From Giardia intestinalis (lineage: Eukaryota), in NCBI GenBank assembly GCA_000002435.2, contig CM018791.1: a stretch of 64,000 bases of DNA. One strand, written 5' to 3'. The notes beneath the pieces are model-generated. The model made no database searches. It saw only the letters and a program-made list of their open reading frames with translations, and had not been told where the DNA came from. The translations under genes were made by a program, and so were the position numbers. Positions 23,741 through 50,181 of this stretch are shown one piece after another; within the stretch, counting starts at the first letter, position 1; each line of letters opens with the position of its first letter.

Positions 23741-26700
23741 TGAAGAGTGTGGACACGCGAGAAGTTGATTTAGTAGGGTTTGCTTAAGCAAGTAAAGTAG
23801 ATTATCTTAGCAACGTTTAAGTTTACTCTGTTTCATCAAGGTTGGTTTGCCAACTGCTGTCCAAGCAAGTCCCACACGGGCCGCTCCGCTCTGGGCAAAG
23901 CCCGGAATCAGACTCTGAAAGCTGGATTCCATCCATCTCCGGCGGGAGAAGAAGATGTTGTGTTCCTTCCCCCGGTGGCCATCGCTTGCTTCCACGGTGC
24001 CTTCCAGGACGTCCCATCCTCTGGCCCGTCGGGGTCAACTACCGTCTGGCACTAGTGGGCACCTACTATCTCAGGACCTTGCATTAGTTGCGGTGACCTG
24101 ACCTTGGGAGTAGTCTAGCCTCCACAGAATCCAGGGTTCTGGTACTCCATGACAAAGATGGGATACGCTATGACTTCGGGTGTCTACCTCGTTCCTTGGG
24201 GTGCCTCTTCGTCTCCTCGTGGATTATACCATCAGTCTCGAGTATGATTGGAGGGTCTGCTCCCCGTGCGCCTCTATCTTGGAGTTGTGGTACGCGTTTG
24301 TGGATGCCACGGACAGCTCCCATGTGTTGTGTCGGGGGAGAAGTATGGCCCTCTGCTCATGGATCACAGTGCACTCTTGCAGGTGCTCCGTCACCCAGCA
24401 CGAGACCGTGTCGGCGCATCATTCTATGCAGTGCGTCTGGCTCGGCTGACGTGTGGGCTGGTCCATCTGCACAGCACACTTGGGGTGATGCTTCGGTCTG
24501 TCGAGGCGTCAGTCCAGGGCCACCTCTCCGAGGGGCGTCATCCGAAGCACCAAGAGCGATCAGGACCGGTTCACCGTCAGGTCGTCTCGCTTAGTGTCCG
24601 CCTACTCGAGGGTGTCAGGCACTGCCAGCTGTTGTAGCAGACGCCCGGCAGGTGGCCCAGGCCGCCACCGCTCTTCGGTGCGGTCATGTGTTCAATTTGC
24701 CTCCGTCAGCCAAGCACCCCAAGGGCCTCATCTCTTGTCAAGGGATTCATATGAATCACGTGTGGGTCCATCTCGACAAGCGTGGCGAGTGATCGGCGCC
24801 ATTGCCAGCTTCAAACGCTCATCTGCACTCGCTATCGCCTTGAGGGAAGAAGCATTCTCCTTTGTCACCAAAATGGGACAACATCTGAACCTCGATTCCC
24901 TGACTTCAGATGATGAACAAGCAGGGAAGTTCTTTGCATGGCACTTGCATGAGGGATTTGCTCGGACAGCAGTTACAGCGTCTGGCTGCATGTTTCTCTT
25001 ACAAGCCTGGTAATTGACTAGGCTTGCTTTACAGTCGCGGAGACACTGCTGCGTCTCTCTGAGTCTTTTAGAGAGACGATCCAGTTTAGTGTAGAAGAGC
25101 GAACGCGACCCAGTCCCGTTCCTACCTGCTGCTCTACGGTCTGCTGCCGCTACTTGTTGTTCTCATTTCCCCTGCTATTGATAGTCGCAATACTCTATGA
25201 AGCAATCGCTTACATCCATCCGCAACCCTAGGCGTTACGGCTTGGAAGGCCATGTCACCGTATAAGCTCTATGGAGGGCATTTACTAGCCATGGCAGATG
25301 GAGGTCGCTGCTTCTGGAGGCCCTGGTGCATGTCGGGTCAGAAGACGCTGACTCCACTGGCTGCAGGAGCCCCCACTTACTGTGACAGCTTGAACTAGCA
25401 CCACTTCGAGGACAGAGGATATCTACAGCCCGAGAGGACACTCCTGCAGAGAACAGATTCAGGCATAGTCGCCAACAGATCCTTGATCCGGATAGATGAG
25501 AGCAGATACCCAATTAGTAAGGCTTTGACTAAGCTACGCAGAATCGCATCCTTCAACACCAGACTCTGACACACGAAGTCTAAGGCAGACCATAGGTACA
25601 TAGCAGACGGGTAGAAACCTGCTTCGTAGTGTGTGGAGGCTTTGATGAGGCAATCGCGGGCTTAATGAAGGCCGGGACCGGTAGCTCTAACAGACAGTTC
25701 CCCAGCTTTGGAATACTTGCGATCACCATAGAGTCAATACAGTGAGTTATCTGCAGTAACAAACTTGTGGGGATAAGAGCAGAGTTCCACCAAACTAGTT
25801 AGACACTAATGGATCCTAGCGCGAACTCGCAGTATAGGGACTTGCAGAAGGCACCGCGTTCTACTCATCTGAGTAAGACGGCCAAATGAGTGGACCCATA
25901 GTGCAAAGACCACGAGGCCAAGGGCTCCTCCATAGCCTCAGAAGCTAACATCACAAGAGTCACACTGGCTGCGGAGTGCTTTCTGATCCACTGAGGCTTA
26001 GCGGCATGGCTTCAGTTCCTAGTACGGCCAGACAGGCTTGAGACACGAGATACTCTGTCTGCTGCAAAGCACACCTTCTGGCAGCGACTCTGGTCTATCG
26101 AGTAACTCTCGCATAGAGGAGGCAGATGGCTCTGAAGCGTCACTGCTCGCCTGATAGCTCTGAGTCATGGCAGAGGAAGCTGTTTATGAGAATGCACCCC
26201 TAGTGTGTAGATCCACATTTTCGTGCGACGTGAGAAGACGCTCCTGGATTGATCTGTCATGCCTCTGTCTGCTCTAGCAAAAAGTAACCCAGCGTATGCA
26301 CTAGTGATCTATGTCGCCATGGCATCTGTAGCTAACTAGCCAACGAGACAATCACTAGAGGAACCCTCGCACACTTATGAGCGGAGGTGCAGCCTGAGAG
26401 CAATCCTCTGGCCGCTAAGTGATGGAAGAGCAGACATAGCGTTGCTCCGTACAATCACACTCTCTCACCTTAGTAGCTATGTGGGCAGCCCCGGTCTCGT
26501 GAAGTCTGTGGATAAGCTGCTTCACCCCATAAAGCATCCAGAATTACTACAGGTGACACCTGCAAAATCTTACTGCGGGAGGCCATGCTCCGCTAGAGAC
26601 GTGGCTCTGGAAACACATTAGCTGATGGGAGCTCCCCTCTGGCGTTCTTAGCGGCGGTGTCTGTCTACAATAGCTCTTACACCCACTGCCTGTATATGGC

Positions 26701-29700
26701 CCAACTGTGCCGTATTAGACCCCTGTCTCCACTGAACGGCTGATTCAAGGGCGATTGCCGTTACCAAGATGATACCTTACATTGACTTCTAAGAGCTGTC
26801 TTTGCATATATTACGCTGCTTAGTACTGCGCTCAAACGAAGCTTGCTATTGCTCCGCATCTATTGTGGATTGGAAGAGCAGTTAGCACTCTCAGTGGTCC
26901 ATGTGGTAATCGGAAGCCAGGGAAGTCTAAGTTGAGTGAGAAGCTTGAGAAGCGAGTAGCAGCCCTTATACTCCTCTGCCGGGTGATACAGAGAACTGGC
27001 TCGTTCCTTAGCGTCGATAGTTCTTCAGAATGCACGTTTCTTTGTTTGAGACCTGCATGCTTCGGATTGTCCTCTGTTGCCAGCAGAGCAGCCACCGCCC
27101 TGTGTGTCTCCTTCAGGCACATGCCCATCTATGACGGCGCCTCCTGCCTCTTCTCTGGAGAGGCATAACCGTCCCAATCCAGACACCTTGCTCTCAGCAC
27201 GCATCTCGTATCCAGCAGAAGCCAGGGGCTCATCAACCATATTCCATGAGCATCAGCGCTGTGCCGCTATGTTACTTCCTGTTCTTCTTGAGGGGAGTGC
27301 TCTGACCATCCCAGTGTCTCTATGATAGAAGAGCTGTGGATCCAGAGATGATTGTTGCTTTCTGGCCCTCTCTTCTGTTCAGTAGACTGCGAGAGCGCCC
27401 TTCAGGAGTCGGTCCCCCAACCTTCTGTTCTCTCGGGGAAGTGGTCCTTGGATAGTGCCACTTGGATGATTCTCGAAGCCTCACTGCACGGGTGCTGCTT
27501 TACAAACACTCCTGGCTGAAGCTGGACCCGAATCCTCCTAGAGTTACCTGCTGGCCCAGTCCTTGATTGCTATCAGCAGAGGTCTCAACCTTCCAAGGAC
27601 ATCTCGGGGACAATACGTTTGGCCCACGTCAGCGCCACTTCCTGGCAGGGGCATGCAGAAGATCTGCTCCCTCTTGTAGATCCATCATTGGTATCGAGAG
27701 CACTGCGCCTGCTATCCTCGCTGGAAGTGTCGGTAGACTGTGCCCCGTATCTATCCCATTGAAGAGTTGGAGGTCCGCCAGGGACAGCGAAGAGGATTTC
27801 ATCAAAACTCTGATAGTAGATTTGCCATCATGGCAGCCATAACGTAAATAAGGCCACCAGCTGTCTGATCCCTGCAACTTCCGGGGTGAGACGCCAGGAG
27901 GCGTGGCTGGTTCAGACTAGTGAGGGCTACTCTTGTCATAGCAGGCTCAGAAAGTAGGGAGCAGATGACGTACCTGATGTCCCTCAACGTACGCATGCAG
28001 CCTGGAAACCGTGCTCAAAGCACCGAGGCCTGCAGGGGAGTGGCATCCGAACAGGCCCGACAGTTATGACTGCTTCTGAGGACAAGTCAGCGTGACTAAA
28101 CGAGAACATGAGAACTCACAGAGACCCTCACAGTTTTGATGTCTGGGAGAACGCGGGGGCTGACCACTCCAAGGTTGTCCATCTCATGAGCTGGTTTCCG
28201 ATAGCAGGCATAACAAGGAAGTGTCCTCCAGTCATACACAATTTCATGCCAGCTCATCTCAGGGTAAAGCATCCTTGTCTGGCTTGCCAGTCCATCCATG
28301 ACGGCAGCAGATGTGTCAGCATTCCATATCATCGGCCACTTTGCTGCTGCACAGTCAGAGTACTGCTCGTGGCATTGCTTGCTGATGCTCTGCATAAGGC
28401 CATGTTCCCGTGGCAGTGACAGGTGAGTCTCTTCGTATCTGTAGTTCATCACAGGTACGGCTTCTCTTGGGTCTTCCACTTCTACGTCTGTCTGGTATCT
28501 CACCTCAATGCGAGTGGCCAGCTGCTGTTATTAGATCTTGCAGTATAACTATTACGCATGTGTGTGTCCATCAAGACTACCATATGAGGCTATACACATC
28601 TGGAGTTCTGTTTAGCAGTTATCAGACTCGATATCAAGATGGCACGGGGACAACACTCCCATTGGTCGCCGGGGACATGAATCATCATACAAGCCGCATA
28701 GTGCACCAGAGGCAGCACGACGGTGGAGGGCATGCCTGGAGGTAGATGGCGCCTACAGCAAGTGGCATGCTGTCGTTGTCAGTACAACGGGCATAGTGGC
28801 TACTGGACCCACACTTTAGCAACCTCAGTCGAAGCAGCTGCACATTGAAGGAACAAGTTATAAGTCTCGCCCGCACTGTTGGGTGGTGCTCTGCCTTGAT
28901 GCTAACTCAGCGGACCAGCCCTCACATCGGTGACGGGGAGCAGGACACCGCGCTGGTCACGTGATAAGATGCCTTCACACAATATTCTAACTATTCTAAG
29001 TCACGTTGGAAAGTGGCTAGCCCTTTTGTACTCCTCCTCTCTGAACGGGACTGGAGACACTTAAGGCCCCTTTTAAAGTCTCAGTATCATGGAACCACTG
29101 CCAGGCAACAAACCTTGTACTGTATAGCATGAGAGTCTTTAGGACATATAAAAAGCTGTGCGACCATAGCAACACGTCTTCGTTCACAGGTGCTAGCGGA
29201 ATCGATGGGCACTAGTGAAGCATATTAGCGGGTAGACGACATACTGATTCAGGCACTCTGCGTGCGGTCATGCCCCACAGCTCTCGTAATGGGCCACGGG
29301 CGGCTTGAGGACCGGTGCTCTATGACGGCGCGAGTGTGGAGTGGTGTGCCCAGAGCATCGCCGGACCGATAGCTTCAGCGCGGCATCCAACACGGTACAG
29401 CAGGGAGTTCAAGCCAGCTGAGCATTGGACCAGGCCCTGGATGGGAATTGAGGGTTCCTGTGCACGACTGGGCTACTCTCTAGATGGGACAGGGTGCACA
29501 GTGAGCTGGGTGGGTGCGATGCTGTAAGGTATCCATAGTCGTGTCGATGCATCTGGTAAGTCCACACTGCCGGACAAGCCAAGAAGACCTGAGGGGTAAT
29601 GGTGCCGTCTTGTTATCGCTATGCAGTACTTTAGGGCACGTAGCTAAAGATGTATCCCCTGATGGCTGGGAAAAGGGCAGAGCTAAATGAATAGTGACTA

Positions 29701-32700
29701 TGCCCATCATGAGCAGCTCCAGATGCTACCCAATCACTCCCTGGAAGCGCATATATCTCAGATAGGTGACACTACATTCAGAGTAGAAGAGGAAGTTGTG
29801 CACTGTCTGACCTGCCATTCAGGACCATGTGCGGATAAAAGGTAGCCCAGCGACTGACGCTCTGCATCACCTCCTCGTCCGCGACTTAAGCAACCAGAAG
29901 TCAGCCTCGATATGCAGGACAGGGGCTGCGAGGAGTAAACTCACCACGGGCCCGATTGTCTGACACCAAAAAATCCGGGACGACGACGGCAGCCGCTGTC
30001 TCCCTAGGAGGATGTATTATGCACGGTATCGACCTTGGTCCCCTAGACGGATTGTTTGGGGCACTCTGCACTAGCCCTGACTTCTGAGGCATTACAGCCT
30101 GTGAATAGCACAAAGTGAGGCAAAAAGATATATAGATGGTGTGTCGCTTTTATGGAGAGGTACTCCAACTTTTAGATGCGCACAGCTGCACCGGGATAGG
30201 CAGTTCACCTGGCTTACATTGGTGGCCTGCCCGCCGCCACATTTGTTGCGACAAGAAGCTGCACTTGTCCAATAGATTGAACAAGCATTACAGCGGCTTC
30301 TCTGATGATCCATGCATAGCCATGTGCCGTCCTAGTAGGTAGCATAGATACCATAATATCTAACCCATCTGTTGCTAGCAAGGAATAGCAGTTAATCGCA
30401 CTAGATACCCTTTTAGGCAGGCATACAGTTTCTGTACTTGCACTTCCACCAGTTGTAATGACAAATGTACATTCAGAAAGGTGTTATGGAACGCTCTGCT
30501 GCCTTTCAAGGTGAGACCTAGACCTACATATAAAGCTAAAGGCAGAACTCTACACATCAATTGTTATGATATTAGTGTGGTGACCGGTTTGGACTAAGGC
30601 ACGCTCCTCACCTATCTATGTGCTTGTTTGCATGCTCGCTGCTAGCGTTGGACAGGACTGCGAGAGGGTCTGCCTCGGGCTGCACCCTCTTTATAACACT
30701 TACCCCTTGATGACACACCTTAACAAAGGAGGATGTCGGCTAAGTGCGTAGAAGGCTGCCCGTGCATGGCGATTCCTGGAGAACCGGTTCATACAGAGAA
30801 GGTAGGGGTGACCAGCGGACCAGTTGGGCAAGGCTGGTGCTAGAGAGGCCAGCTACCGGTCTGGATTGCAATAGGGACACCTGTAGTATCTTTCTGCCCT
30901 TCGAGTGTGGAAAGATCGTGAGGCCCGCTGACAAGCTGGACGCTGCTTTTTGATTTTATGCATTTGTAGCAGCATAATATCTATTGGGGTCCACTTCGCT
31001 TGAAACCGAGGAAGCTTAAGTTCTCTCCGTATACAGGCAAGGATCATTTGTAGAGGTATACTGCGCAGGCTGGTATCAGTCGGCGTGGTTGCTGTCCGCA
31101 GATGTCTCACCTACGTCTTCTCATGGCAGATGATCATCAACAACACTTTTCGGCCACGTGGTGTTCTACAGTGTACCTTCACCTTCGACCAAAGGTTGGC
31201 ACACGCATTATGTAGTTTAGATTGCTCATCACCCAGGGTGGTATAGTCAGCTCCTGTCCCTTGCTTGTCCATCTCGTGCAACCATTTATTGATGGCCTTT
31301 CTAGATCAACAGGTGCCTCCATCGGTCCCACAAAGGAATGTGTCATGCAGGCGGCCACTACAGGTTAGGGTCTTCCTACCAAGGAAAAGGGTCAATCGGT
31401 TTACTGCGTGGGGATCCTCTGTGCGTCTCATATAGGCCTGACAGCCCTTGTGCCCCAGTATCTCCTCGCAAGCCGCTGTTTGGAGTCCACATGCATATGA
31501 TTAGCACCACGCATTTGGTTTCAACAAACTATTTAGGGCGTTAGACCCTTTGCACTGCACACTGAGTATGCTCAGCGTGGGAGGTACACAATCAGCATTG
31601 GTCTTCTCGGCTTATTGTATGTATAATATTACTGTTGCTTCGTATTCAACTAGTGGTCCAGCTCATGACCTTGAGCGCAGATGATGGCCCGTCAACGGGT
31701 ATTAGCGGCGATCGTGGCACGTACTTCCACTAGGGCACGGCCTCCTGGGTAGGGGCATAAGTGGACTTCTGTTATTCTGCGGGTTTGCTGCTCCCTCGGA
31801 TAGCAAAGATTGGAGTAGCCCAGACTAGCATTGATCATCTCCGAGTCTCCATCTGTCCTCGTTGTCTGAGGTAGGCTTGATTTCATAAACTGGAAGGCAC
31901 TGCACTGTACTCTGGATCTGCGAAATTCAATTAGGCAGGGCTGCTATCTCGGTGACTGCACTGATGTAGCCTCACACCCCGTAGGACCTACAGGGAGCAT
32001 CACAACCCAATGGAACCCTTTATTTATCTAATGCAAGTTGTAGCTGTGACCTCATAAGCGCAGGACGTTCTAGAATAACCGGTCAACTACAGAGTTCGTC
32101 CATTCATGTAGAGCCAGCAGATAGAGAGTGATATCAGTCTCGTCGATCGTCTAAAACGCACACCAGTCAAGTCTCACAGGCGAGCAAGCCCCACCTACCC
32201 CGTAGCAATAAGCATCGGTGGGTGTCCCTCATAACGATAAGTAGACAGGCTTTCAACGGTCACGGCACTCGCTTTCCTGTTGAAGGCCTTCCAGTCACTG
32301 ACCTAGGTCAGCCTCCTACAAGATCCGTGGCGGAATTGTATCAGAAATGCATGTTTATGGGACTCCCAGCTCAAGGTGTATGCTGCCGGATCCCACTTTC
32401 CATACCAGTCTGTATACAGCGGTGTTCTGGCCTCTAATGAAACTACACTGGAGATCACATAAAATATAATGCCCCAGTCGGGTATTATCAGACTCCTATA
32501 GCTATGCAATGAGGTCTGCTTTTCGCATTACGCATCAGAGAAGTATGTTGGGCTGTAGTGGTGCAATACCTCGTATGATATGGTTCGTGAGCCCAGAGAT
32601 AAGATGCTTGTATCAGTCGATCTGTTTACCTAGGGCCAACCATAAGTTAGACTAACGGTGACAATCAGACTCTGCTCGACTCCCTAACAGCAGATAGAGA

Positions 32701-33699
32701 TCCGACTACCCTAGTACCTTACCTGAGACCACAGGGACGCTGATTACGGGTCTGATTAATAGCTGGCGGAGCGACACGACAGGCCTAAGTTTTTTCTGCC
32801 GAAGTAGCCCACCACAAGAAACTCTTTGTCGTTCATACCAACAAATTCAGGTGCTGCGAGCAATCATGGTTCTACTACTGCTACAATGGACAGCACCAGG
32901 ATGATCCAAAAGGGGTAATGAAAGTCCTGGTTTCTTAGCTTAGGAGACAGCGCGGTTTGGGCAGTGCTTCTTGTCCAAATGTAGAAGTGTTGGCCTGCGT
33001 TTCCTGAACTCTAATTGAGTCCTTGTCATGCGGTAAGGTATCCTAAAATATCCACTACAAAAAGCGAAAAATAGCGCCGTCCACGCCCAACAAACCAAGA
33101 CGTCTCACGGGCTAATCTACGCTGGTTCATATCTTCCATGGACCCTAGCGACCACACCGATCTTCTCCTAGAATCTCACAGGAGCTCGTCTTTGAGTGCA
33201 GCTCTCCTACGACAGTCAGTGGTCGTGGACATTATATGGTGGAGGAGAATGCTACAGGGGCTGAGAAGAGAGTGCTGGCAAACGGGGGTCCGCAGGGATC
33301 CGACCCGCGCAAAGAAGGCGCAGGGGGCTGGCTCCTCAAGGATGCAGAGGCGCCAGGAAGGGAGCCGGTAGCGAACATGGTGCACAGCGGGAACACCCGG
33401 ACCATCCTCAGATTAATGGCAGGACAGAGGAGCTGCAGGCGCATGGGGCAGCATCACCGCTTGTTTTTGGATTTTCTGTTTCCCTGTGTGTTGCGTAAGG
33501 GGTTTCAGAGAAGGCGGGGAGTGTTGGGCTGTGTACAGCGGACGTACTTGGCACTCAATGAATTCCTATTTATTAAACAAAGTATCGTAGGGGACAGATC
33601 TTTTTGGATTGTCTGGCATAACATATAATCAGGTAGGGCGTTTTAGCTTTGGATATATTTACTAGTAGATTCTTACTTCTAATAAACTAATGAGCCTCA

Positions 33700-35601
33700 A
33701 TGTTGTTAATAGTATTCTATCTTGTGCTGAGTGCTCTTGCGGCAAATTGTGAAACAGAAGGCAATAAAAGCAATTGTGACAGCGGTCGCTGTGAAATGGT
33801 TGGCATTGTTGAAGTCTGTACTCAGTGCAAGACAAATGGACACGTCCCTATTGACGGAGTATGTACGCCAAAGAACGAAGCAGATGCTAATTGTAAGAAG
33901 GATGGAGGGAGTCCATTAGATCAAGACGCTAAGATCTGCGGGCAGTGTGCTCAAGGATACTTCCTTCATAAAGGTGGATGCTATGCAATTGGTGGAAACG
34001 TTGGACGCATCATCTGTAATGATCCTACTCCTACACTCAAAGGGCGCAATTCTGTTGAGGGTGTTTGCTCAGCGTGCAATTCTACCAGTGGATTCTTTAA
34101 GAATCCTGCCAATGTAGCTAATAAGGATTCGTGCATAGCATGTGATGATACAACTGGTGATAGTGGCAATGTAGGTTTGGAAGGATGCGCCACTTGCCAA
34201 CATTCTGGTTCGGGAGCAGCCACATGCTTAACATGTAAAGATGGATACTATGATAATAATCCAAGTCAGGATACTGTTACATGTGCATCATGTACGGATG
34301 ACTGTAAGACTTGCATAGATACTGGAAATGCTAAATGCACATCTTGTCAGACAAAATATTTAAAAATTACGGACCCTAATGGTGTGTTTGGGGAATGCGT
34401 TGATGAAAACACATGCAAACAGCCAGGAACCCACTTTCCGATAACAACTACAGATAACATAAAGGTATGTGCTCTTTGTAGCGATGCGGAGAATAAGGGC
34501 GTAGTTGGCTGTGCTAAATGTACCTCGACCCCAGCAAGTGATTCCGGCAATGCAATCATTGTTAAATGCATAGAATGCACAACGCCAGATACCACCAAAC
34601 CCAACTTTGCCGGGACAGGGTGCTTTGCTTGTTCTGCAACAGATTGCTCTAATTGCAGTGCAGATAATGTTTGCGAAAAATGTGGGAAAGGAAAGAAGCT
34701 GAGCCCTTTAAAGGATAGTTGTTTAGATAGTTGCCCTGCTGGCACGCACAACAAGGATAACGTTTGTGTCCCTTGCCACACATCTTGTGCAGAATGTGCA
34801 AGTGATTCTGTGGGAGAAAGCTCATGTACAGCTTGCTATCCTGGATTTGCATTGCGCAAAGGCGAGGACGAGGCTACCGGGGCATGTATTCCAGAATGCA
34901 CGGGAAAGTACGCAGAAAACTGTGAAGCTGGCCAGTGCACAGCCATCGTTGGAGGCTCCAAGTACTGCAGCAAGTGCAAGGCTGGATACGTTCCAGTGGA
35001 CGGCGTCTGTGTGTCGACAACAGCAAGGACGCCGACTGGATGCACGCCAAATGATAACAATGATGGAACATGTAAGGAATGCACAACCACATACTTCCTG
35101 CAGTCTGGCGGGTGTTACAATGCACAGACATTTCCGGGCAAATTGCTATGCACAGCGGCCACTGGCAACGGGCAGTGTCAGACATGTGCAGCCAGTGGAC
35201 AAAGCCCAGCTGGAGGAAAATGTCCGGAATGTTCTGAGGGCTGTGCAAAGTGTACTGACTCTAACACTTGTAACGAATGCTTTTCAGGATATTACAAAGG
35301 TGCTGGTAATAAATGCTTTAAATGTACCGATGGTGACAAGGCTAACTCTGATGCAATAACTGGTGTAGAGAACTGCGTAAGCTGCGCGCCTCCAATTAGT
35401 GGCAATGGTGGCTCTGTCATCTGCTACGTCAAGACGGATGGCACTGGCGGTGGTGATAATGATAACAACACCGGCGGAAGCACGAACAAGAGCGGCCTTT
35501 CCACGGGCGCCATCGCAGGCATCGCTGTGGCTGCTGTCATCGTTGTAGGAGGCCTTGTGGGCTTCCTCTGCTGGTGGTTCATCTGCAGAGGAAAGGCGTA
35601 G
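33700..35601 (+). CDS. Variant-specific surface protein (VSP), copy 1
   Basis: 633 aa. Signal peptide MLLIVFYLVLSALAA, ~12% Cys with dozens of CXXC and GGCY motifs. Single C-terminal TM helix (AIAGIAVAAVIVVGGLVGFLCWWFI) followed by the invariant CRGKA tail. Start sits in a PyAATGTT initiator context (tcaATGTTg). AGTAAAC polyA signal 13 nt after the stop. Confidence 0.95.
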   Translation: MLLIVFYLVLSALAANCETEGNKSNCDSGRCEMVGIVEVCTQCKTNGHVPIDGVCTPKNEADANCKKDGGSPLDQDAKICGQCAQGYFLHKGGCYAIGGNVGRIICNDPTPTLKGRNSVEGVCSACNSTSGFFKNPANVANKDSCIACDDTTGDSGNVGLEGCATCQHSGSGAATCLTCKDGYYDNNPSQDTVTCASCTDDCKTCIDTGNAKCTSCQTKYLKITDPNGVFGECVDENTCKQPGTHFPITTTDNIKVCALCSDAENKGVVGCAKCTSTPASDSGNAIIVKCIECTTPDTTKPNFAGTGCFACSATDCSNCSADNVCEKCGKGKKLSPLKDSCLDSCPAGTHNKDNVCVPCHTSCAECASDSVGESSCTACYPGFALRKGEDEATGACIPECTGKYAENCEAGQCTAIVGGSKYCSKCKAGYVPVDGVCVSTTARTPTGCTPNDNNDGTCKECTTTYFLQSGGCYNAQTFPGKLLCTAATGNGQCQTCAASGQSPAGGKCPECSEGCAKCTDSNTCNECFSGYYKGAGNKCFKCTDGDKANSDAITGVENCVSCAPPISGNGGSVICYVKTDGTGGGDNDNNTGGSTNKSGLSTGAIAGIAVAAVIVVGGLVGFLCWWFICRGKA

Positions 35602-35613
35602 ATGTACTTAGGT

Positions 35614-35620
35614 AGTAAAC
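35614..35620 (+). promoter_or_regulatory. Giardia polyadenylation signal AGTAAAC downstream of VSP copy 1
   Basis: Matches the AGTRAAY consensus and lies 13 nt after the TAG stop. The mirrored copy gtttact sits at 38396..38402 for VSP copy 2. Confidence 0.5.
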
Positions 35621-36160
35621 ACGTTACTTTATGTAGCTTATGTAGATGTGCTGCTGGAGCTATCTGAGCACGGCCCAGGGATCATGTGGGTGGGCCCGTT
35701 CCTTCCTGTCCAGTCCTGAGACGACTGTCGGTCATGGATAACATGACGGAGAGTCCTCTCCAGTGATATATTCAGAGTCTGGGCATTCCTCGGCCACTTC
35801 GCAGGGGTATGCTCTGTCTGGATATCCATACCGATCTGCCTTGGATTCGGGCCTTTTTGTAGACTCTCTGCTCTACCAATGGCGCCTCTCCTTAGTCTCT
35901 CTTCACGGTGGGTGAGGCCCGGGTCGCTGTCTTTTTTAGATGCCCCGTCTGTCAGGGGCTGCCACCGGGCTCTCCGCTGGCTGGGCCCCTCGGTGTCCGG
36001 GCAGCTGTGGTTCTGGGTCAGCGCTCCCACGGTCACGGTCACGTAGGTTCCATAGCGGGCCGGCTGGTGGGGAGGCCGGGGTTGCTGGGGCGGTGAGGGC
36101 TGCTGGGACCGGGTGGGGTGGTGAGGTGGGGGGTGTCTGTATGTGCCCCTGGGTCCGGTG

Positions 36161-37855
36161 AACTGGGGTGATCGCAGCTGTGGTGACTGGGGGCTGTCCA
36201 TCTGTGACTCACCCCTCTGTGGACTCGTGGTCTGTGAGTGCCTCCACCCAGACAGCACCCCAGGAGCCGGAGAGTGGTGCCAGCCTAGCTGCCCTCCCTC
36301 CTCGGTGCCTCCCAGTGCAGACTCACCGGAGGCCACTACCCTGTCAGCCACCCAAAGGAGCCGTGCACACCGGGACAGAGAGGATGACCAAGGGGGTCAA
36401 GCAGCCCTGCCACGAGGGTGCACAGCAACCAGCATGAGATGTAGGGTCTGCTCGAGCGATGTAGTGGCAGACGACTCCCTCTGACAGCGACCCTGGTGAC
36501 TGCACTGGTCTGCTCTCGAGGCTGAGTGACAGTGTGCACAGATGGACATGAGTGCAGGAGGACCGTCCACACACGGACAGACTGTGTGGACCCAGAGAGG
36601 ACTGGAGTCTGCTCGGGACACGCTGACTGTGTGCCCATACGAGAGTGCCAGGCAACTACTCAAGCACCGAGAGGCAGGTACAGACACGGGCACTAGAGAT
36701 CCCCAGCCAGACACATTGCTATGCTCATCCACAGGGGCATCAGAGGGCCAGGTGGAGTCACCCTCACAGTTAGGGCCTGATAGGAAGCCAGAGGACTCAA
36801 ACACTACAGCAGAGCAGGCCCAGAGGAGGCACACTCCAGGCAGGTGAGCAGTGGCAGAGCCTTGATAGCTGCCATCCACCCCCATGACACCCAGGCAGGC
36901 ACCAGACTCCGAAGACTCGCTGGCCTCGACTGATGACCCGAGGGGGCAGCAGCCAGAGGAGCGAGGAGGCCTTCGGACGCCACAAGAGGCCGGCTGTCCA
37001 GCAGGCGATGAGGCAGACAGGTGACCTCTGAGCACCACACAGGCACAGAGCCGACCATCATGAGTGATGCCCGATCACAGAGATGACCACGAGCGCCCTC
37101 CACCGCACTCTGGGGGGCTGTCGATCATCCCACTGCCTCTCATAGCAGACCTCCTTGGGGGCAGTGCAGTGGGTCCCAGCTCATACAGGAGGGTGTGTGC
37201 CCCCCTCAGTATAGGATGCCCCGACTCTTCCCGAGGGGTCATCAGAGCCACGAGGAGGGGTCAAGGTCCTGGTGGATCATATCGGGAACTCCCGAGGGCA
37301 CAGCAGGTGAGGTGTGGGTGACCCTCAGCGTGCTCCTCTCTGCATGGTAGAGCATCCTGAGACCAAGGAAGCTCACCCCTGCCTACGGATGATACACAGC
37401 GCTCCACAACAAGGACCCACAAGGAGCAGCACAGCTGACCACGGGGGCAGTGCAGCCACCCGGTACCCCACCATGCCAGTCTTCTGGGCCATCACACTAG
37501 AGGCCTGAGAGAACCCCATCCCATCCACAGGGTCATCCACACCCCTGCTGGCCCGAGGTGAACTGCACCCATCGAGGCACTGGACAGGGCATGCTGGGGG
37601 CCCAGCAGATCCACACAGAGCATCAGCACAGAGCATCAGCGAGTAGCAGGAGAGGCTGCGATGGCCTGCCTCAGCCCTCACGCACCAGCCAGACAGAGCA
37701 GTACTGCCTGAGGCATGCAGGGGCCAAGGGAGGCGCTCAGTCAGGGGACACGACACGATCGTCGGTGCCTCTGTCTCAGGAGTACAACGAAGGCTGAAGA
37801 GCAGACACAGTCACCTTGGCAAACAGAACGGGGATCACCCACCACCCCAATGGCC
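36161..37855. other. Unique GC-rich central spacer of the palindrome (~1.7 kb, apparently non-coding)
   Basis: The arm mirror relation breaks here (left: ...cctgggtccggtgAACTGGGG; right rc: ...cctgggtccggtgGGCCATTGG). GC visibly >60%. Overlapping ORFs in several frames on both strands are typical of non-coding GC-rich DNA. Confidence 0.7.
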
Positions 37856-40800
37856 CACCGGACCCAGGGGCACATACAGACACCCCCCACCTCACCACCC
37901 CACCCGGTCCCAGCAGCCCTCACCGCCCCAGCAACCCCGGCCTCCCCACCAGCCGGCCCGCTATGGAACCTACGTGACCGTGACCGTGGGAGCGCTGACC
38001 CAGAACCACAGCTGCCCGGACACCGAGGGGCCCAGCCAGCGGAGAGCCCGGTGGCAGCCCCTGACAGACGGGGCATCTAAAAAAGACAGCGACCCGGGCC
38101 TCACCCACCGTGAAGAGAGACTAAGGAGAGGCGCCATTGGTAGAGCAGAGAGTCTACAAAAAGGCCCGAATCCAAGGCAGATCGGTATGGATATCCAGAC
38201 AGAGCATACCCCTGCGAAGTGGCCGAGGAATGCCCAGACTCTGAATATATCACTGGAGAGGACTCTCCGTCATGTTATCCATGACCGACAGTCGTCTCAG
38301 GACTGGACAGGAAGGAACGGGCCCACCCACATGATCCCTGGGCCGTGCTCAGATAGCTCCAGCAGCACATCTACATAAGCTACATAAAGTAACGTGTTTA
38401 CTACCTAAGTACATCTACGCCTTTCCTCTGCAGATGAACCACCAGCAGAGGAAGCCCACAAGGCCTCCTACAACGATGACAGCAGCCACAGCGATGCCTG
38501 CGATGGCGCCCGTGGAAAGGCCGCTCTTGTTCGTGCTTCCGCCGGTGTTGTTATCATTATCACCACCGCCAGTGCCATCCGTCTTGACGTAGCAGATGAC
38601 AGAGCCACCATTGCCACTAATTGGAGGCGCGCAGCTTACGCAGTTCTCTACACCAGTTATTGCATCAGAGTTAGCCTTGTCACCATCGGTACATTTAAAG
38701 CATTTATTACCAGCACCTTTGTAATATCCTGAAAAGCATTCGTTACAAGTGTTAGAGTCAGTACACTTTGCACAGCCCTCAGAACATTCCGGACATTTTC
38801 CTCCAGCTGGGCTTTGTCCACTGGCTGCACATGTCTGACACTGCCCGTTGCCAGTGGCCGCTGTGCATAGCAATTTGCCCGGAAATGTCTGTGCATTGTA
38901 ACACCCGCCAGACTGCAGGAAGTATGTGGTTGTGCATTCCTTACATGTTCCATCATTGTTATCATTTGGCGTGCATCCAGTCGGCGTCCTTGCTGTTGTC
39001 GACACACAGACGCCGTCCACTGGAACGTATCCAGCCTTGCACTTGCTGCAGTACTTGGAGCCTCCAACGATGGCTGTGCACTGGCCAGCTTCACAGTTTT
39101 CTGCGTACTTTCCCGTGCATTCTGGAATACATGCCCCGGTAGCCTCGTCCTCGCCTTTGCGCAATGCAAATCCAGGATAGCAAGCTGTACATGAGCTTTC
39201 TCCCACAGAATCACTTGCACATTCTGCACAAGATGTGTGGCAAGGGACACAAACGTTATCCTTGTTGTGCGTGCCAGCAGGGCAACTATCTAAACAACTA
39301 TCCTTTAAAGGGCTCAGCTTCTTTCCTTTCCCACATTTTTCGCAAACATTATCTGCACTGCAATTAGAGCAATCTGTTGCAGAACAAGCAAAGCACCCTG
39401 TCCCGGCAAAGTTGGGTTTGGTGGTATCTGGCGTTGTGCATTCTATGCATTTAACAATGATTGCATTGCCGGAATCACTTGCTGGGGTCGAGGTACATTT
39501 AGCACAGCCAACTACGCCCTTATTCTCCGCATCGCTACAAAGAGCACATACCTTTATGTTATCTGTAGTTGTTATCGGAAAGTGGGTTCCTGGCTGTTTG
39601 CATGTGTTTTCATCAACGCATTCCCCAAACACACCATTAGGGTCCGTAATTTTTAAATATTTTGTCTGACAAGATGTGCATTTAGCATTTCCAGTATCTA
39701 TGCAAGTCTTACAGTCATCCGTACATGATGCACATGTAACAGTATCCTGACTTGGATTATTATCATAGTATCCATCTTTACATGTTAAGCATGTGGCTGC
39801 TCCCGAACCAGAATGTTGGCAAGTGGCGCATCCTTCCAAACCTACATTGCCACTATCACCAGTTGTATCATCACATGCTATGCACGAATCCTTATTAGCT
39901 ACATTGGCAGGATTCTTAAAGAATCCACTGGTAGAATTGCACGCTGAGCAAACACCCTCAACAGAATTGCGCCCTTTGAGTGTAGGAGTAGGATCATTAC
40001 AGATGATGCGTCCAACGTTTCCACCAATTGCATAGCATCCACCTTTATGAAGGAAGTATCCTTGAGCACACTGCCCGCAGATCTTAGCGTCTTGATCTAA
40101 TGGACTCCCTCCATCCTTCTTACAATTAGCATCTGCTTCGTTCTTTGGCGTACATACTCCGTCAATAGGGACGTGTCCATTTGTCTTGCACTGAGTACAG
40201 ACTTCAACAATGCCAACCATTTCACAGCGACCGCTGTCACAATTGCTTTTATTGCCTTCTGTTTCACAATTTGCCGCAAGAGCACTCAGCACAAGATAGA
40301 ATACTATTAACAACATTGAGGCTCATTAGTTTATTAGAAGTAAGAATCTACTAGTAAATATATCCAAAGCTAAAACGCCCTACCTGATTATATGTTATGC
40401 CAGACAATCCAAAAAGATCTGTCCCCTACGATACTTTGTTTAATAAATAGGAATTCATTGAGTGCCAAGTACGTCCGCTGTACACAGCCCAACACTCCCC
40501 GCCTTCTCTGAAACCCCTTACGCAACACACAGGGAAACAGAAAATCCAAAAACAAGCGGTGATGCTGCCCCATGCGCCTGCAGCTCCTCTGTCCTGCCAT
40601 TAATCTGAGGATGGTCCGGGTGTTCCCGCTGTGCACCATGTTCGCTACCGGCTCCCTTCCTGGCGCCTCTGCATCCTTGAGGAGCCAGCCCCCTGCGCCT
40701 TCTTTGCGCGGGTCGGATCCCTGCGGACCCCCGTTTGCCAGCACTCTCTTCTCAGCCCCTGTAGCATTCTCCTCCACCATATAATGTCCACGACCACTGA

Positions 40801-43800
40801 CTGTCGTAGGAGAGCTGCACTCAAAGACGAGCTCCTGTGAGATTCTAGGAGAAGATCGGTGTGGTCGCTAGGGTCCATGGAAGATATGAACCAGCGTAGA
40901 TTAGCCCGTGAGACGTCTTGGTTTGTTGGGCGTGGACGGCGCTATTTTTCGCTTTTTGTAGTGGATATTTTAGGATACCTTACCGCATGACAAGGACTCA
41001 ATTAGAGTTCAGGAAACGCAGGCCAACACTTCTACATTTGGACAAGAAGCACTGCCCAAACCGCGCTGTCTCCTAAGCTAAGAAACCAGGACTTTCATTA
41101 CCCCTTTTGGATCATCCTGGTGCTGTCCATTGTAGCAGTAGTAGAACCATGATTGCTCGCAGCACCTGAATTTGTTGGTATGAACGACAAAGAGTTTCTT
41201 GTGGTGGGCTACTTCGGCAGAAAAAACTTAGGCCTGTCGTGTCGCTCCGCCAGCTATTAATCAGACCCGTAATCAGCGTCCCTGTGGTCTCAGGTAAGGT
41301 ACTAGGGTAGTCGGATCTCTATCTGCTGTTAGGGAGTCGAGCAGAGTCTGATTGTCACCGTTAGTCTAACTTATGGTTGGCCCTAGGTAAACAGATCGAC
41401 TGATACAAGCATCTTATCTCTGGGCTCACGAACCATATCATACGAGGTATTGCACCACTACAGCCCAACATACTTCTCTGATGCGTAATGCGAAAAGCAG
41501 ACCTCATTGCATAGCTATAGGAGTCTGATAATACCCGACTGGGGCATTATATTTTATGTGATCTCCAGTGTAGTTTCATTAGAGGCCAGAACACCGCTGT
41601 ATACAGACTGGTATGGAAAGTGGGATCCGGCAGCATACACCTTGAGCTGGGAGTCCCATAAACATGCATTTCTGATACAATTCCGCCACGGATCTTGTAG
41701 GAGGCTGACCTAGGTCAGTGACTGGAAGGCCTTCAACAGGAAAGCGAGTGCCGTGACCGTTGAAAGCCTGTCTACTTATCGTTATGAGGGACACCCACCG
41801 ATGCTTATTGCTACGGGGTAGGTGGGGCTTGCTCGCCTGTGAGACTTGACTGGTGTGCGTTTTAGACGATCGACGAGACTGATATCACTCTCTATCTGCT
41901 GGCTCTACATGAATGGACGAACTCTGTAGTTGACCGGTTATTCTAGAACGTCCTGCGCTTATGAGGTCACAGCTACAACTTGCATTAGATAAATAAAGGG
42001 TTCCATTGGGTTGTGATGCTCCCTGTAGGTCCTACGGGGTGTGAGGCTACATCAGTGCAGTCACCGAGATAGCAGCCCTGCCTAATTGAATTTCGCAGAT
42101 CCAGAGTACAGTGCAGTGCCTTCCAGTTTATGAAATCAAGCCTACCTCAGACAACGAGGACAGATGGAGACTCGGAGATGATCAATGCTAGTCTGGGCTA
42201 CTCCAATCTTTGCTATCCGAGGGAGCAGCAAACCCGCAGAATAACAGAAGTCCACTTATGCCCCTACCCAGGAGGCCGTGCCCTAGTGGAAGTACGTGCC
42301 ACGATCGCCGCTAATACCCGTTGACGGGCCATCATCTGCGCTCAAGGTCATGAGCTGGACCACTAGTTGAATACGAAGCAACAGTAATATTATACATACA
42401 ATAAGCCGAGAAGACCAATGCTGATTGTGTACCTCCCACGCTGAGCATACTCAGTGTGCAGTGCAAAGGGTCTAACGCCCTAAATAGTTTGTTGAAACCA
42501 AATGCGTGGTGCTAATCATATGCATGTGGACTCCAAACAGCGGCTTGCGAGGAGATACTGGGGCACAAGGGCTGTCAGGCCTATATGAGACGCACAGAGG
42601 ATCCCCACGCAGTAAACCGATTGACCCTTTTCCTTGGTAGGAAGACCCTAACCTGTAGTGGCCGCCTGCATGACACATTCCTTTGTGGGACCGATGGAGG
42701 CACCTGTTGATCTAGAAAGGCCATCAATAAATGGTTGCACGAGATGGACAAGCAAGGGACAGGAGCTGACTATACCACCCTGGGTGATGAGCAATCTAAA
42801 CTACATAATGCGTGTGCCAACCTTTGGTCGAAGGTGAAGGTACACTGTAGAACACCACGTGGCCGAAAAGTGTTGTTGATGATCATCTGCCATGAGAAGA
42901 CGTAGGTGAGACATCTGCGGACAGCAACCACGCCGACTGATACCAGCCTGCGCAGTATACCTCTACAAATGATCCTTGCCTGTATACGGAGAGAACTTAA
43001 GCTTCCTCGGTTTCAAGCGAAGTGGACCCCAATAGATATTATGCTGCTACAAATGCATAAAATCAAAAAGCAGCGTCCAGCTTGTCAGCGGGCCTCACGA
43101 TCTTTCCACACTCGAAGGGCAGAAAGATACTACAGGTGTCCCTATTGCAATCCAGACCGGTAGCTGGCCTCTCTAGCACCAGCCTTGCCCAACTGGTCCG
43201 CTGGTCACCCCTACCTTCTCTGTATGAACCGGTTCTCCAGGAATCGCCATGCACGGGCAGCCTTCTACGCACTTAGCCGACATCCTCCTTTGTTAAGGTG
43301 TGTCATCAAGGGGTAAGTGTTATAAAGAGGGTGCAGCCCGAGGCAGACCCTCTCGCAGTCCTGTCCAACGCTAGCAGCGAGCATGCAAACAAGCACATAG
43401 ATAGGTGAGGAGCGTGCCTTAGTCCAAACCGGTCACCACACTAATATCATAACAATTGATGTGTAGAGTTCTGCCTTTAGCTTTATATGTAGGTCTAGGT
43501 CTCACCTTGAAAGGCAGCAGAGCGTTCCATAACACCTTTCTGAATGTACATTTGTCATTACAACTGGTGGAAGTGCAAGTACAGAAACTGTATGCCTGCC
43601 TAAAAGGGTATCTAGTGCGATTAACTGCTATTCCTTGCTAGCAACAGATGGGTTAGATATTATGGTATCTATGCTACCTACTAGGACGGCACATGGCTAT
43701 GCATGGATCATCAGAGAAGCCGCTGTAATGCTTGTTCAATCTATTGGACAAGTGCAGCTTCTTGTCGCAACAAATGTGGCGGCGGGCAGGCCACCAATGT

Positions 43801-50151: not shown

Positions 50152-50181
50152 TCGGATATATCTCTTCAATAAAATCTATAT

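What the first reader, a model, noticed from the sequence alone, without database searches (positions are those of the whole stretch)
23865..33690. ~9.8 kb ORF-poor sequence in each palindrome arm, anomalous for Giardia gene density
Outside the palindrome, genes sit 2-600 bp apart and coding fraction exceeds 85%. Inside each arm upstream of the VSP there is ~9.8 kb (mirrored at 40326..50151) whose longest ORF is 139 aa, with overlapping frame-hopping ORFs on both strands and ~50% GC. This looks like decayed sequence, for example a dead retroelement array, old VSP pseudogenes or other pseudogenised genes, or a large non-coding transcription unit. I could not recognise RT, endonuclease or VSP motifs by eye. 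A weak CxxC...H stretch in the ORF at 28096..28503 (-) is the only hint.
Basis: seen in the sequence. Interest (0 to 1): 0.6.

Follow-up and report, generated by a model that had tools for sequence, protein, structure and literature searches.

The report
Non-coding DNA beside duplicated Giardia VSP genes
The 10 kb gene-free stretch in each arm of this Giardia palindrome is real; it is neutrally drifting non-coding DNA with a dead retrotransposon fragment at its outer end, an extreme case of the gene-poor surroundings already described for Giardia surface-antigen (VSP) genes.

Summary
Window 23741-33699, mirrored at 40317-50181, has no ORF longer than shuffled sequence gives. It has no host-like codon usage, no Pfam domain in six frames, no Rfam or tRNA hit and no internal repeats. 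The reference WB C6 annotation places no gene there.

It is not an artefact. Independent Illumina contigs cover parts of it, and assemblage E (P15) has a syntenic, equally ORF-poor 10 kb.

WB and P15 differ there at the synonymous rate (K2P 0.45 against 0.40 at 4-fold sites). Mismatches show no 3-base periodicity and 88% of indels are not multiples of three. So it has evolved without coding constraint since assemblages A and E split.

The outer ~1.2 kb (23809-24994, minus strand; mirror 49022-50156) is a frameshifted, 5'-truncated relic of a Giardia non-LTR retrotransposon. It keeps the post-RT and endonuclease region (E 2e-13) but no RT domain. The other ~8.7 kb is anonymous, and no VSP relic was found.

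The palindrome is the tail-to-tail identical VSP pair of Adam et al. 2010. Assemblage A2 shares its outer boundaries. Arms match within a genome but differ ~18% between A1 and A2, which indicates concerted evolution.

Gene-poor, GC-elevated, TE-relic-bearing VSP flanks are already published, so interest is low to moderate.

The parts
23741..33699 (.). Left ORF-poor span, from the stop of GL50803_0016956 (755 aa) to the VSP start codon
   Evidence: ORF lengths equal those of shuffles. Codon score is negative throughout. No Pfam hit in six frames, and no Rfam, tRNA or tandem-repeat hit. No annotated gene. Syntenic with P15 L007 12269-22256 at 68.5% identity.
40317..50181 (.). Mirror copy of the ORF-poor span in the right arm, ending 25 nt before NOT2 (50182)
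   Evidence: The arms are identical except for one base. Logan contig L002 reads from NOT2 187 nt into this arm.
23860..36160 (+). Left palindrome arm (12,301 nt)
37856..50156 (-). Right palindrome arm (12,301 nt)
23809..24994 (-). Dead, 5'-truncated non-LTR retrotransposon fragment. It covers the end of the RT domain, the post-RT region, an endonuclease-like C-terminus and a short 3' tail. It starts about 50 nt outside the palindrome boundary.
   Evidence: tblastn of P15 RT/endonuclease proteins: P0051 residues 131-465 map to 24931..24136 across three frames with in-frame stops, E 2e-13. P0052 gives 5e-8, and P0049 residues 261-406 map to 24994..24640. nhmmer places P15 element L022 5219-6583 on 23809-24869, E 1.5e-94.
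49022..50156 (+). Mirror copy of the retrotransposon fragment, cut off at the arm boundary next to NOT2
   Evidence: The same tblastn hits occur at mirrored coordinates.
24995..33699 (.). Anonymous non-coding DNA (~8.7 kb; mirror 40317-49021) of unknown origin, evolving neutrally
   Evidence: No similarity to retroelement RT, N-terminus or flank, to window proteins, or to itself. WB-P15 identity is 0.57-0.78 in every 200-nt window. Mismatches are not 3-periodic and 88% of indels are not multiples of three.
30945..30973 (.). Best-conserved patch between WB and P15 (29-nt exact match; 38 of 40 identical at 30949-30988; mirror 43043-43071)
   Evidence: Corrected P is about 0.003 for the 40-nt window. 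The overlapping 85-aa ORF is broken in P15.
33700..35601 (+). VSP with INR (633 aa, CRGKA tail), copy 1
38415..40316 (-). VSP with INR, identical copy 2
36161..37855 (.). Unique spacer of the palindrome. It is 62% GC with CpG o/e about 0.44 (measured on 35602-38414), has no domain and no internal palindrome.

Best explanation
The span is non-coding intergenic DNA belonging to the gene-poor, GC-elevated domain that surrounds Giardia VSP genes. It has two parts. The first is a dead, 5'-truncated fragment of a Giardia non-LTR (RT/endonuclease) retrotransposon at the outer end. The second is about 8.7 kb of anonymous sequence whose origin can no longer be recognised.

Shown: the tract was already present downstream of GL50803_0016956 in the common ancestor of assemblages A and E. 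Since then it has drifted at the neutral rate without coding or detectable sequence-level constraint.

Shown: in the A lineage the tract, the VSP and 559 nt of the VSP's 3' flank exist as a 12.3 kb inverted duplication. Its outer edge lies inside the retroelement's 3' tail.

Inferred: the two arms are kept identical within a genome by arm-to-arm gene conversion (concerted evolution), while they diverge between strains.

Inferred: the tract itself has no sequence-specified function. It persists because Giardia indels are small and nothing selects against it. At most it acts as a passive spacer or chromatin buffer for the silenced VSP.
For: Absence of coding signal:
- ORF lengths are indistinguishable from shuffles.
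- The codon score is negative along the whole span.
- No Pfam family is found in six frames at E <= 1. The same approach recovers the VSP at 1e-74.
- No Rfam, tRNA or tandem-repeat hit.
- No gene is annotated between KAE8302856 and KAE8302857, or between KAE8302858 and KAE8302859.

Neutral evolution against P15:
- P15 contig ACVC01000133 (L007) is collinear for about 9.4 kb.
- K2P is 0.449 in the span against 0.399 at 1,477 four-fold sites of the five flanking genes.
- Mismatch phase is uniform in all 15 longest gap-free blocks, and 197 indels are mostly 1-2 nt, with only 12% multiples of three.
- P15's copy is also ORF-poor.

Retroelement relic.

Concerted evolution:
- In DHA2 (A2) the two flanks run into the same inverted sequence at the same boundaries, 99.8% identical to each other.
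- That sequence is 82% identical to WB, while the flanking genes are 98.0-98.4% identical.

Literature:
- Adam et al. 2010 Table 5 list a tail-to-tail pair with 559 nt of 3' identity and 2,814 nt between ORFs, which is this pair's geometry.
- 'Regions around VSPs tend to be gene-poor' with higher allelic variation.
- VSP intergenic regions have a mean length of 2.1 kb, 53.9% GC upstream, and TE relics near tail-to-tail pairs.
Against: - About 88% of the span has no identified origin.
- No Giardia whole-genome search was possible, so I cannot say whether the anonymous part is single-copy or shared with other VSP flanks or subtelomeres.
- Neutral sequence evolution does not exclude a sequence-independent role such as a spacer, a chromatin domain or a transcribed lncRNA.
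- One patch (30945-30988) is more conserved than expected.
- The A1/A2 comparison covers only the outer 460-780 nt, which is retroelement-derived. Its 18% divergence could reflect conversion from paralogous element copies rather than fast evolution of the arms. The WB arm is closer to the P15 NOT2-side element (0.69) than to the positional P15 copy (0.59).
- At 10 kb the tract is about five times the published mean VSP intergenic length.
Confidence: 0.75

Rival explanations
1. The tract is functional in a sequence-independent way. Together with the palindrome it forms a chromatin or RNA-based control region for the VSP pair. It could act as a heterochromatin buffer insulating neighbouring housekeeping genes. 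Alternatively it could be a template for long read-through, hairpin or antisense transcripts that feed the RNAi-like or epigenetic silencing of VSPs.
For: Tract length is retained in A and E (9.4 against 10.0 kb). Extended non-coding upstream regions are described as typical of expressible VSP genes. Upstream GC is elevated as in other VSPs. A perfect palindrome would give dsRNA if transcribed through the centre (inference). Short Logan contigs from runs SRR445166-172 include arm sequence; these runs may be the RNA-seq of GSE36490, but that is unverified.
Against: No constraint of any kind is detectable over 200-nt windows. Length retention is what 197 mostly 1-2-nt indels would give by drift. 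In assemblage B, VSP sequences start only 2.4 kb after the orthologous gene. No expression or chromatin data could be examined.
Confidence: 0.15
2. The whole 9.8 kb is a decayed array of retrotransposons or of pseudogenised genes (VSP, HCMP, NEK, ankyrin proteins), too old to recognise except at its outer end.
For: The outer 1.2 kb is demonstrably retroelement-derived. Retroelement copies with RVT_1 sit at the same synteny break in DHA2 and P15. A preprint reports TE relics around tail-to-tail VSP pairs using CENSOR.
Against: RT is the best-conserved part of such elements, yet it is undetectable while the less conserved C-terminus scores E 2e-13. This argues for 5' truncation rather than uniform decay. 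nhmmer finds no degenerate internal periodicity or self-similarity. No Pfam hit for VSP, Ank or Pkinase. No similarity to the P15 or DHA2 element bodies or their flanks.
Confidence: 0.08
3. The tract, or the second arm, is an assembly artefact of the long-read assembly.
For: A perfect 12.3 kb palindrome is a pattern that long-read chimeras can produce.
Against: The identical VSP pair with the same 559 nt and 2,814 nt geometry was described from the Sanger assembly. Both flanks read into arm sequence in independent Illumina assemblies of A1 and A2 isolates. Interior segments were recovered from other runs. P15 has the syntenic tract.
Confidence: 0.02

Closest known systems
Gene-poor, GC-elevated regions flanking Giardia VSP genes (Xu et al. 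2020, PMC7000408; Rodriguez-Walker et al. 2022, bioRxiv 10.1101/2022.03.07.483299)
   Same: The tract lies directly upstream of a 'VSP with INR'. It has no genes, higher GC than the neighbouring genes (51.8% against 47%), higher between-strain variation, and a TE relic nearby.
   Different: The length is about 10 kb, against a published median of 1.3 kb and mean of 2.1 kb. Here its neutral evolution against assemblage E and its ancestral presence are shown directly.
Identical inverted (tail-to-tail) VSP pairs (Adam et al. 2010, PMC2996952, Table 5, gene #1)
   Same: Two identical VSP ORFs lie tail to tail. Identity extends 559 nt past the stop, the ORFs are 2,813-2,814 nt apart, and the centre is non-coding.
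   Different: The 2010 table gives no 5' divergence point for tail-to-tail pairs. Here identity runs 9.84 kb upstream of the start codon, to a boundary inside a retroelement relic.
Giardia non-LTR retrotransposons (GilM, GilT, GilD; Arkhipova & Morrison 2001, cited from PMC7000408 and PMC5537684)
   Same: The outer 1.2 kb is homologous to the post-RT and endonuclease-like C-terminus of Giardia 'reverse transcriptase/endonuclease' proteins. It is 5'-truncated and riddled with frameshifts, like a dead copy.
   Different: There is no RT domain, no head-to-tail array and no telomeric position. The subfamily could not be assigned because no Gil reference sequences were available.
Large palindromes maintained by arm-to-arm gene conversion (e.g. 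primate Y-chromosome ampliconic palindromes; from general knowledge)
   Same: The arms are near-identical within a genome, diverge between lineages and surround a unique spacer.
   Different: The scale is smaller (12 kb). The content is mostly non-coding. Between-strain divergence is seen only in the outer 0.8 kb and may involve paralogous retroelement copies.

Membership tests
Protein-coding gene(s), including frameshifted or spliced ones | ORFs longer than chance allows, and host-like codon usage | tested here: not met
   The longest frame is 174 codons against 156 +/- 25 in shuffles. The codon score never exceeds 6.2, whereas flanking genes reach 22-27.
Protein-coding gene(s), including frameshifted or spliced ones | Purifying selection: substitution rate below the synonymous rate, 3-periodic mismatches, and indels in multiples of three | tested here: not met
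   K2P is 0.449 against 0.399 at 4-fold sites. Mismatch phase is uniform and only 12% of indels are multiples of three.
Giardia non-LTR retrotransposon (Gil-type) copy | Reverse-transcriptase domain (Pfam RVT_1) | tested here: not met
   No RVT_1 in six frames. P0048 and the RT parts of P0049-P0053 give no hit in the span.
Giardia non-LTR retrotransposon (Gil-type) copy | Homology to the post-RT and C-terminal endonuclease-like region of Giardia RT/endonuclease ORFs | tested here: met
   P0051 residues 131-465 map to 24931..24136, E 2e-13, across three frames with stops. nhmmer gives E 1.5e-94 against the P15 element.
Giardia non-LTR retrotransposon (Gil-type) copy | Head-to-tail tandem array | tested here: not met
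   No direct repeats and no nhmmer self-hits in the span.
Giardia non-LTR retrotransposon (Gil-type) copy | Assignment to GilM, GilT or GilD by nucleotide identity to reference elements | not testable with these tools
   No Gil reference sequences or Giardia genome database were available. PMC64710 is not held.
VSP pseudogene | Similarity to VSP (Pfam PF03302, CXXC-rich region, conserved C-terminus ending CRGKA) | tested here: not met
   tblastn with the adjacent VSP gives a best E of 0.71. PF03302 is absent while the positive control scores 1.3e-74.
Identical inverted VSP pair (Adam et al. 2010) | Two identical VSP ORFs in inverted orientation, 2-4 kb of non-coding DNA between them, and abrupt loss of identity a few hundred nt from the ORFs | tested here: met
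   Both ORFs encode the same 633-aa protein. They are 2,813 nt apart and identity ends 559 nt after the stop. These numbers match Table 5, gene #1.
Known structured RNA family | Match to an Rfam covariance model or a tRNA | tested here: not met
   No Rfam match at E <= 1 in 23000-38500. No tRNA in the window.
Regional centromere | CenH3 occupancy, with one such locus per chromosome | not testable with these tools
   No ChIP data were available, and no paper mapping Giardia centromere sequences was found. Twenty duplicated VSP pairs on five chromosomes argue against a one-per-chromosome element.

The most novel reading that the evidence does not exclude
The palindrome arms, including the non-coding tract, form a fast-evolving, self-homogenising unit. 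Arm-to-arm gene conversion keeps them identical within a genome, while they diverge about ten times faster than the flanking genes between sub-assemblages A1 and A2. The long non-coding arms may also serve a sequence-independent function, for example as a hairpin or antisense RNA source or as a silent-chromatin domain that controls which VSP is expressed.
Probability: 0.12. Interest if true: 0.6.

Novelty: new member of a known kind. Interest (0 to 1): 0.25.

Why it matters
The result explains an apparent anomaly in a very compact genome. The 26 kb between GL50803_0016956 and NOT2 holds only two identical VSP genes. The rest is neutral DNA, partly a retrotransposon relic, that has sat at a synteny break since before assemblages A and E split.

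It supports the published view that VSP loci are gene-poor, TE-scarred and recombination-prone. It adds a concrete case of concerted evolution of a VSP palindrome, with boundaries shared between A1 and A2, arms identical within each genome and 18% divergence between them.

It also warns annotators. The longest ORFs in the tract, and an annotated 253-aa P15 'hypothetical protein', lie antisense to a dead retroelement. It does not reveal a new gene, RNA or mechanism.

Tried and rejected
1. Hidden protein domains. Pfam on all six X-masked frames of 23741-33699 and of the centre 35602-38414 gave nothing real. The one hit, 'Basic' at E 0.026 and below its cutoff, is spurious.

2. VSP or other window-gene relics. 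tblastn of 15 window proteins gave E > 0.26.

3. Structured RNAs, tRNAs and tandem repeats: none.

4. Homologues of the 11 longest ORFs, concatenated. The search returned no hit. The result carries no weight.

6. An exact 34-mer from 28510-28543 in JGI metagenomes gave no match.

7. An RT-containing remainder of the element. phmmer --max of seven Giardia RT proteins against all six-frame pieces of WB and P15 gave nothing beyond 25162.

8. nhmmer with the P15 and DHA2 element bodies and flanks, and 1-kb self-chunks, gave nothing in 25163-33699.

9. A RIP-like one-directional mutation bias. WB-derived changes are mostly C>T and G>A (24 of 35), but DHA2-derived changes run both ways, so this is not supported.

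10. Assemblage B as a third lineage. No nucleotide similarity remains, as expected at 77% coding identity.

11. Centromere literature. No sequence-level mapping in Giardia was found.

12. The identity of runs SRR445166-172 (RNA or DNA) could not be established.

13. Pfam on the six frames of P15's tract was prepared but not run.
Full report
**What the window is.** The VSP at 33700-35601 ends in CRGKA. Exact look-ups identify the flanking proteins as Giardia intestinalis WB C6 GL50803_0016956 (KAE8302856, 755 aa) and a NOT2/3/5 protein (KAE8302859). The two VSP copies are 'VSP with INR', KAE8302857 and KAE8302858, on a 1,973,847-bp record. The four accessions are consecutive. The current reference annotation therefore places no gene in 23741-33699, in the centre, or in 40317-50181.

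**Checking the observation.**
- One inverted repeat is found. Its arms are 23860-36160 and 37856-50156 (12,301 nt) and its spacer is 1,695 nt. A base-by-base check finds one mismatch, at 23863.
- No ORF of 150 aa or more lies between 23740 and 33700, or in the mirror. The longest start-to-stop ORF is 139 aa.
- The longest stop-to-stop frame is 174 codons. Dinucleotide-type shuffles of the span give 156 +/- 25, and 21% reach the observed value.
- GC is 51.8% against about 47% in the flanks.
- A codon log-odds score trained on the window's genes is negative over the whole span. It is positive over every flanking gene and over the VSP.

**Is it real DNA?**
- Short-read (Logan) contigs from other sequencing runs match 31928-35048 at 99.5-100%. 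One covers 28099-28503.
- Contigs from both flanks run into arm sequence in A1-type runs (L002 reaches 187 nt in). They do the same in A2-type assemblies.
- Adam et al. 2010, working from the Sanger assembly, list a tail-to-tail identical VSP pair. Identity extends 559 nt beyond the stop and the ORFs are 2,814 nt apart. Here the arm ends 559 nt after the stop (35601 to 36160) and the ORFs are 2,813 nt apart.
- An assembly artefact is excluded.

**What is in the span: negative results.**
- Rfam at E <= 1, tRNA search and tandem-repeat search find nothing.
- The span has no similarity to any other part of the window except its mirror.
- tblastn with 15 window proteins, including the adjacent VSP, finds nothing (best E 0.26; VSP 0.71).
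- All six frames, with stops masked as X, were scanned against Pfam at E <= 1 and gave no family.
- The same procedure on a frame that contains the VSP recovers PF03302 at 1.3e-74, so the method works.
- The centre 35602-38414 is equally empty. Its 213-aa and 237-aa ORFs are R/P/S/G-rich, as expected in 62% GC sequence.

**Comparative evidence.**
- The orthologue of the 755-aa gene in assemblage E (P15, contig ACVC01000133; L007) is followed by 10 kb carrying a single called gene.
- That 10 kb is collinear with the WB span: L007 13267-22256 aligns with window 24803-33167 at 65-70% identity by BLASTN. The flanking genes are 85-87% identical.
- A global alignment gives 68.5% identity over 9,206 aligned sites. 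Every 200-nt window lies between 0.57 and 0.78.
- Four-fold degenerate sites of the five flanking gene pairs are 71.4% identical (n = 1,477).
- K2P distances are 0.449 for the span and 0.399 for four-fold sites. Both are transition-biased, with ts/tv of 3.6 and 5.3.
- In the 15 longest gap-free blocks the mismatches fall evenly on the three phases. Of 197 indels, 105 are 1 nt and 32 are 2 nt, and only 12% are multiples of three.
- P15's tract is itself ORF-poor.
- The tract therefore predates the A/E split, and since then it has evolved as unconstrained DNA in both lineages. This rules out hidden conserved genes, spliced or not.
- One patch is better conserved than expected: 30945-30973 is a 29-nt exact match, and 38 of 40 positions agree at 30949-30988 (corrected P about 0.003). 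The ORF over it is broken in P15.
- In assemblage B (GS_B; L008), VSP fragments begin 2.4 kb after the orthologous gene. No nucleotide similarity to the tract remains, as expected at that distance.

**A dead retroelement at the outer end.**
- The NOT2 side was fetched in other strains. Genes with RVT_1 lie upstream of NOT2 in both DHA2 (A2) and P15.
- A 257-aa P15 ORF from that element hits the WB span at 24249-24792 on the minus strand.
- A homology search with the P15 element returned seven Giardia RT-related proteins.
- Of these, P0051 residues 131-465 align to window 24931..24136 in five HSPs across three frames, with in-frame stops (E 2e-13). P0052 gives 5e-8. P0049 residues 261-406 align to 24994..24640.
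- In P0051 the RT domain is residues 8-149. The relic therefore starts at the very end of RT and runs through the post-RT region. It also covers a C-terminus I read as a CCHC plus restriction-enzyme-like endonuclease. That reading of the motifs comes from my own knowledge of R2- and Gil-type elements, not from a test.
- At the nucleotide level, the P15 element (L022 5219-6583) matches window 23809-24869 (E 1.5e-94). The homology thus starts about 50 nt outside the palindrome on the left.
- No RT or N-terminal zinc-finger part is detectable anywhere in the span, by Pfam, tblastn or phmmer --max. No element body, flank or self-similarity is found in 25163-33699 by nhmmer.
- RT is the most conserved part of such elements. 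The simplest reading is a 5'-truncated 1.2-kb fragment, not an array.
- The three longest ORFs of the span (24196-25013, plus strand) lie antisense to this relic. So does P15's annotated 253-aa 'hypothetical protein' (L007 12560-13321).

**The palindrome in other strains.**
- In DHA2 the sequence after the 755-aa gene (L003 12390-12848) is the reverse complement of the sequence before NOT2 (L016 9515-9973) at 99.8%. Both begin at the positions that correspond to WB 23860 and 50156. The inverted duplication with these outer boundaries therefore predates the A1/A2 split.
- WB and DHA2 are nevertheless only 82% identical over the outer 780 nt. The adjacent genes are 98.0-98.4% identical. Arms identical within a genome but divergent between genomes indicate concerted evolution by arm-to-arm conversion.
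- The size of this divergence has two possible causes that I could not separate. One is genuinely fast change. The other is conversion from paralogous retroelement copies. The WB arm is closer to the P15 NOT2-side element (0.69) than to the positional P15 copy (0.59).
- Homology of DHA2's right side to WB stops about 780 nt into the arm. It is followed by an RT relic in the opposite orientation and by different genes (EamA, flavodoxin-like, ABC transporter).
- In P15, NOT2 is preceded by a nearly intact element and by yet other genes.
- WB-P15 homology on the right resumes only 4 nt from the arm boundary. The locus is a synteny break that has been rearranged in each lineage.

**Comparison with what is known.**
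- Xu et al. 2020 state that regions around VSPs tend to be gene-poor and show more allelic variation.
- Rodriguez-Walker et al. 2022 report VSP intergenic distances with a median of 1,280 nt and a mean of 2,131 nt. They also report 53.9% GC in the 2 kb upstream, 20 duplicated VSP pairs of which 13 are tail to tail, and TE relics in their flanks.
- Adam et al. 2010 call an extended non-coding upstream region typical of expressible VSP genes.
- This tract is therefore an unusually long instance (about 10 kb) of a documented kind of region, inside a documented VSP pair.
- What is added here is fourfold:
  - its ancestral presence in A and E;
  - its neutral evolution;
  - the identification of its outer 12% as a retroelement fragment that also carries the palindrome boundary;
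  - the A1/A2 evidence for concerted evolution.

**Mechanism and verdict.**
- Most likely (0.75), the tract is non-functional at the sequence level. It is old intergenic or TE-derived DNA that drifts neutrally. It was copied together with the VSP into an inverted duplication and is kept homogeneous by gene conversion.
- A sequence-independent role cannot be excluded without expression and chromatin data (0.15). Candidates are a spacer, a silent-chromatin domain, or a template for read-through, hairpin or antisense RNA.
- A fully decayed element or pseudogene array (0.08) and an artefact (0.02) are unlikely.
- A centromere reading is untestable here. Twenty such pairs on five chromosomes make it implausible.
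- Interest is low to moderate. The anomaly is real but largely explained and already described in general terms.

Noticed in passing
window 23860-24640 / 49376-50156; L003 12390-12848; L016 9197-9975: The arm sequences are identical within WB and 99.8% identical within DHA2 (A2), but only about 82% identical between the two strains. The adjacent genes are 98.0-98.4% identical. This indicates concerted evolution of the palindrome with about 10-fold excess divergence, or conversion from paralogous retroelement copies.
   Followed up: partly
L016 1-9196 (DHA2) and L022 1-9980 (P15), compared with window 37856-50156: The neighbourhood upstream of NOT2 differs in all three strains. WB has the 12.3-kb arm. 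DHA2 has about 0.8 kb of arm, then an RT relic in the opposite orientation, then EamA, flavodoxin-like and ABC-transporter genes. P15 has a near-intact RT element, then DM10 and LMBR1 genes. This is a retroelement-marked synteny break. A DHA2 misassembly cannot be excluded.
   Followed up: partly
L007 12560-13321 (P15 contig ACVC01000133): The only gene called in P15's syntenic tract is a 253-aa R/P/S-rich 'hypothetical protein'. It lies antisense to the retroelement relic (minus-strand hits at 12650-13375) and is not conserved in WB, so it is probably a spurious annotation.
   Followed up: partly
window 30945-30988 (mirror 43028-43071): A 29-nt exact match, GCTTTTTGATTTTATGCATTTGTAGCAGC, is shared by WB and P15 in otherwise 69%-identical DNA, and 38 of 40 positions are identical. 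It could be a small regulatory or promoter-like element, or chance.
   Followed up: partly
window 35602-38414 (centre); L016 6080-6448: The centre is 62% GC with strong CpG depletion (o/e 0.44) and an A-over-T skew. It contains no domain. The first ~380 nt after the VSP stop (35631-35985) has a homologue at another DHA2 position (E 3e-18). The nine tail-to-tail pairs in Adam et al. Table 5 have similar 3' identity lengths (318-559 nt, mostly ~490-560) and ORF spacings (2.4-3.2 kb). This hints that tail-to-tail VSP pairs share a common 3' module.
   Followed up: no
L008 13048-13416 (GS_B, assemblage B): Assemblage B also has a retroelement C-terminal relic just downstream of the orthologous gene (E 1.7e-10), but in the opposite orientation to A and E. 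VSP fragments follow within 2.4 kb.
   Followed up: no
window 50157-50181: The right arm ends only 25 nt before the NOT2 start codon. WB-P15 homology begins 4 nt from that boundary, so NOT2's promoter region in WB is largely arm (retroelement-tail) sequence.
   Followed up: no
one search compared: A 1,261-aa concatenated query returned no protein hit, although two of its component ORFs are on record as exact gene calls.
   Followed up: yes
L020, L021, L023, L024, L026 (runs SRR445166-172): Short (2-2.7 kb) contigs from a consecutive run series carry A1-, A2- and P15-type alleles and include arm sequence (32326-33699, and 245 nt of the outer arm). The series may be the four-isolate RNA-seq of GSE36490. 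If so, parts of the tract would be transcribed. The run identities could not be verified.
   Followed up: partly
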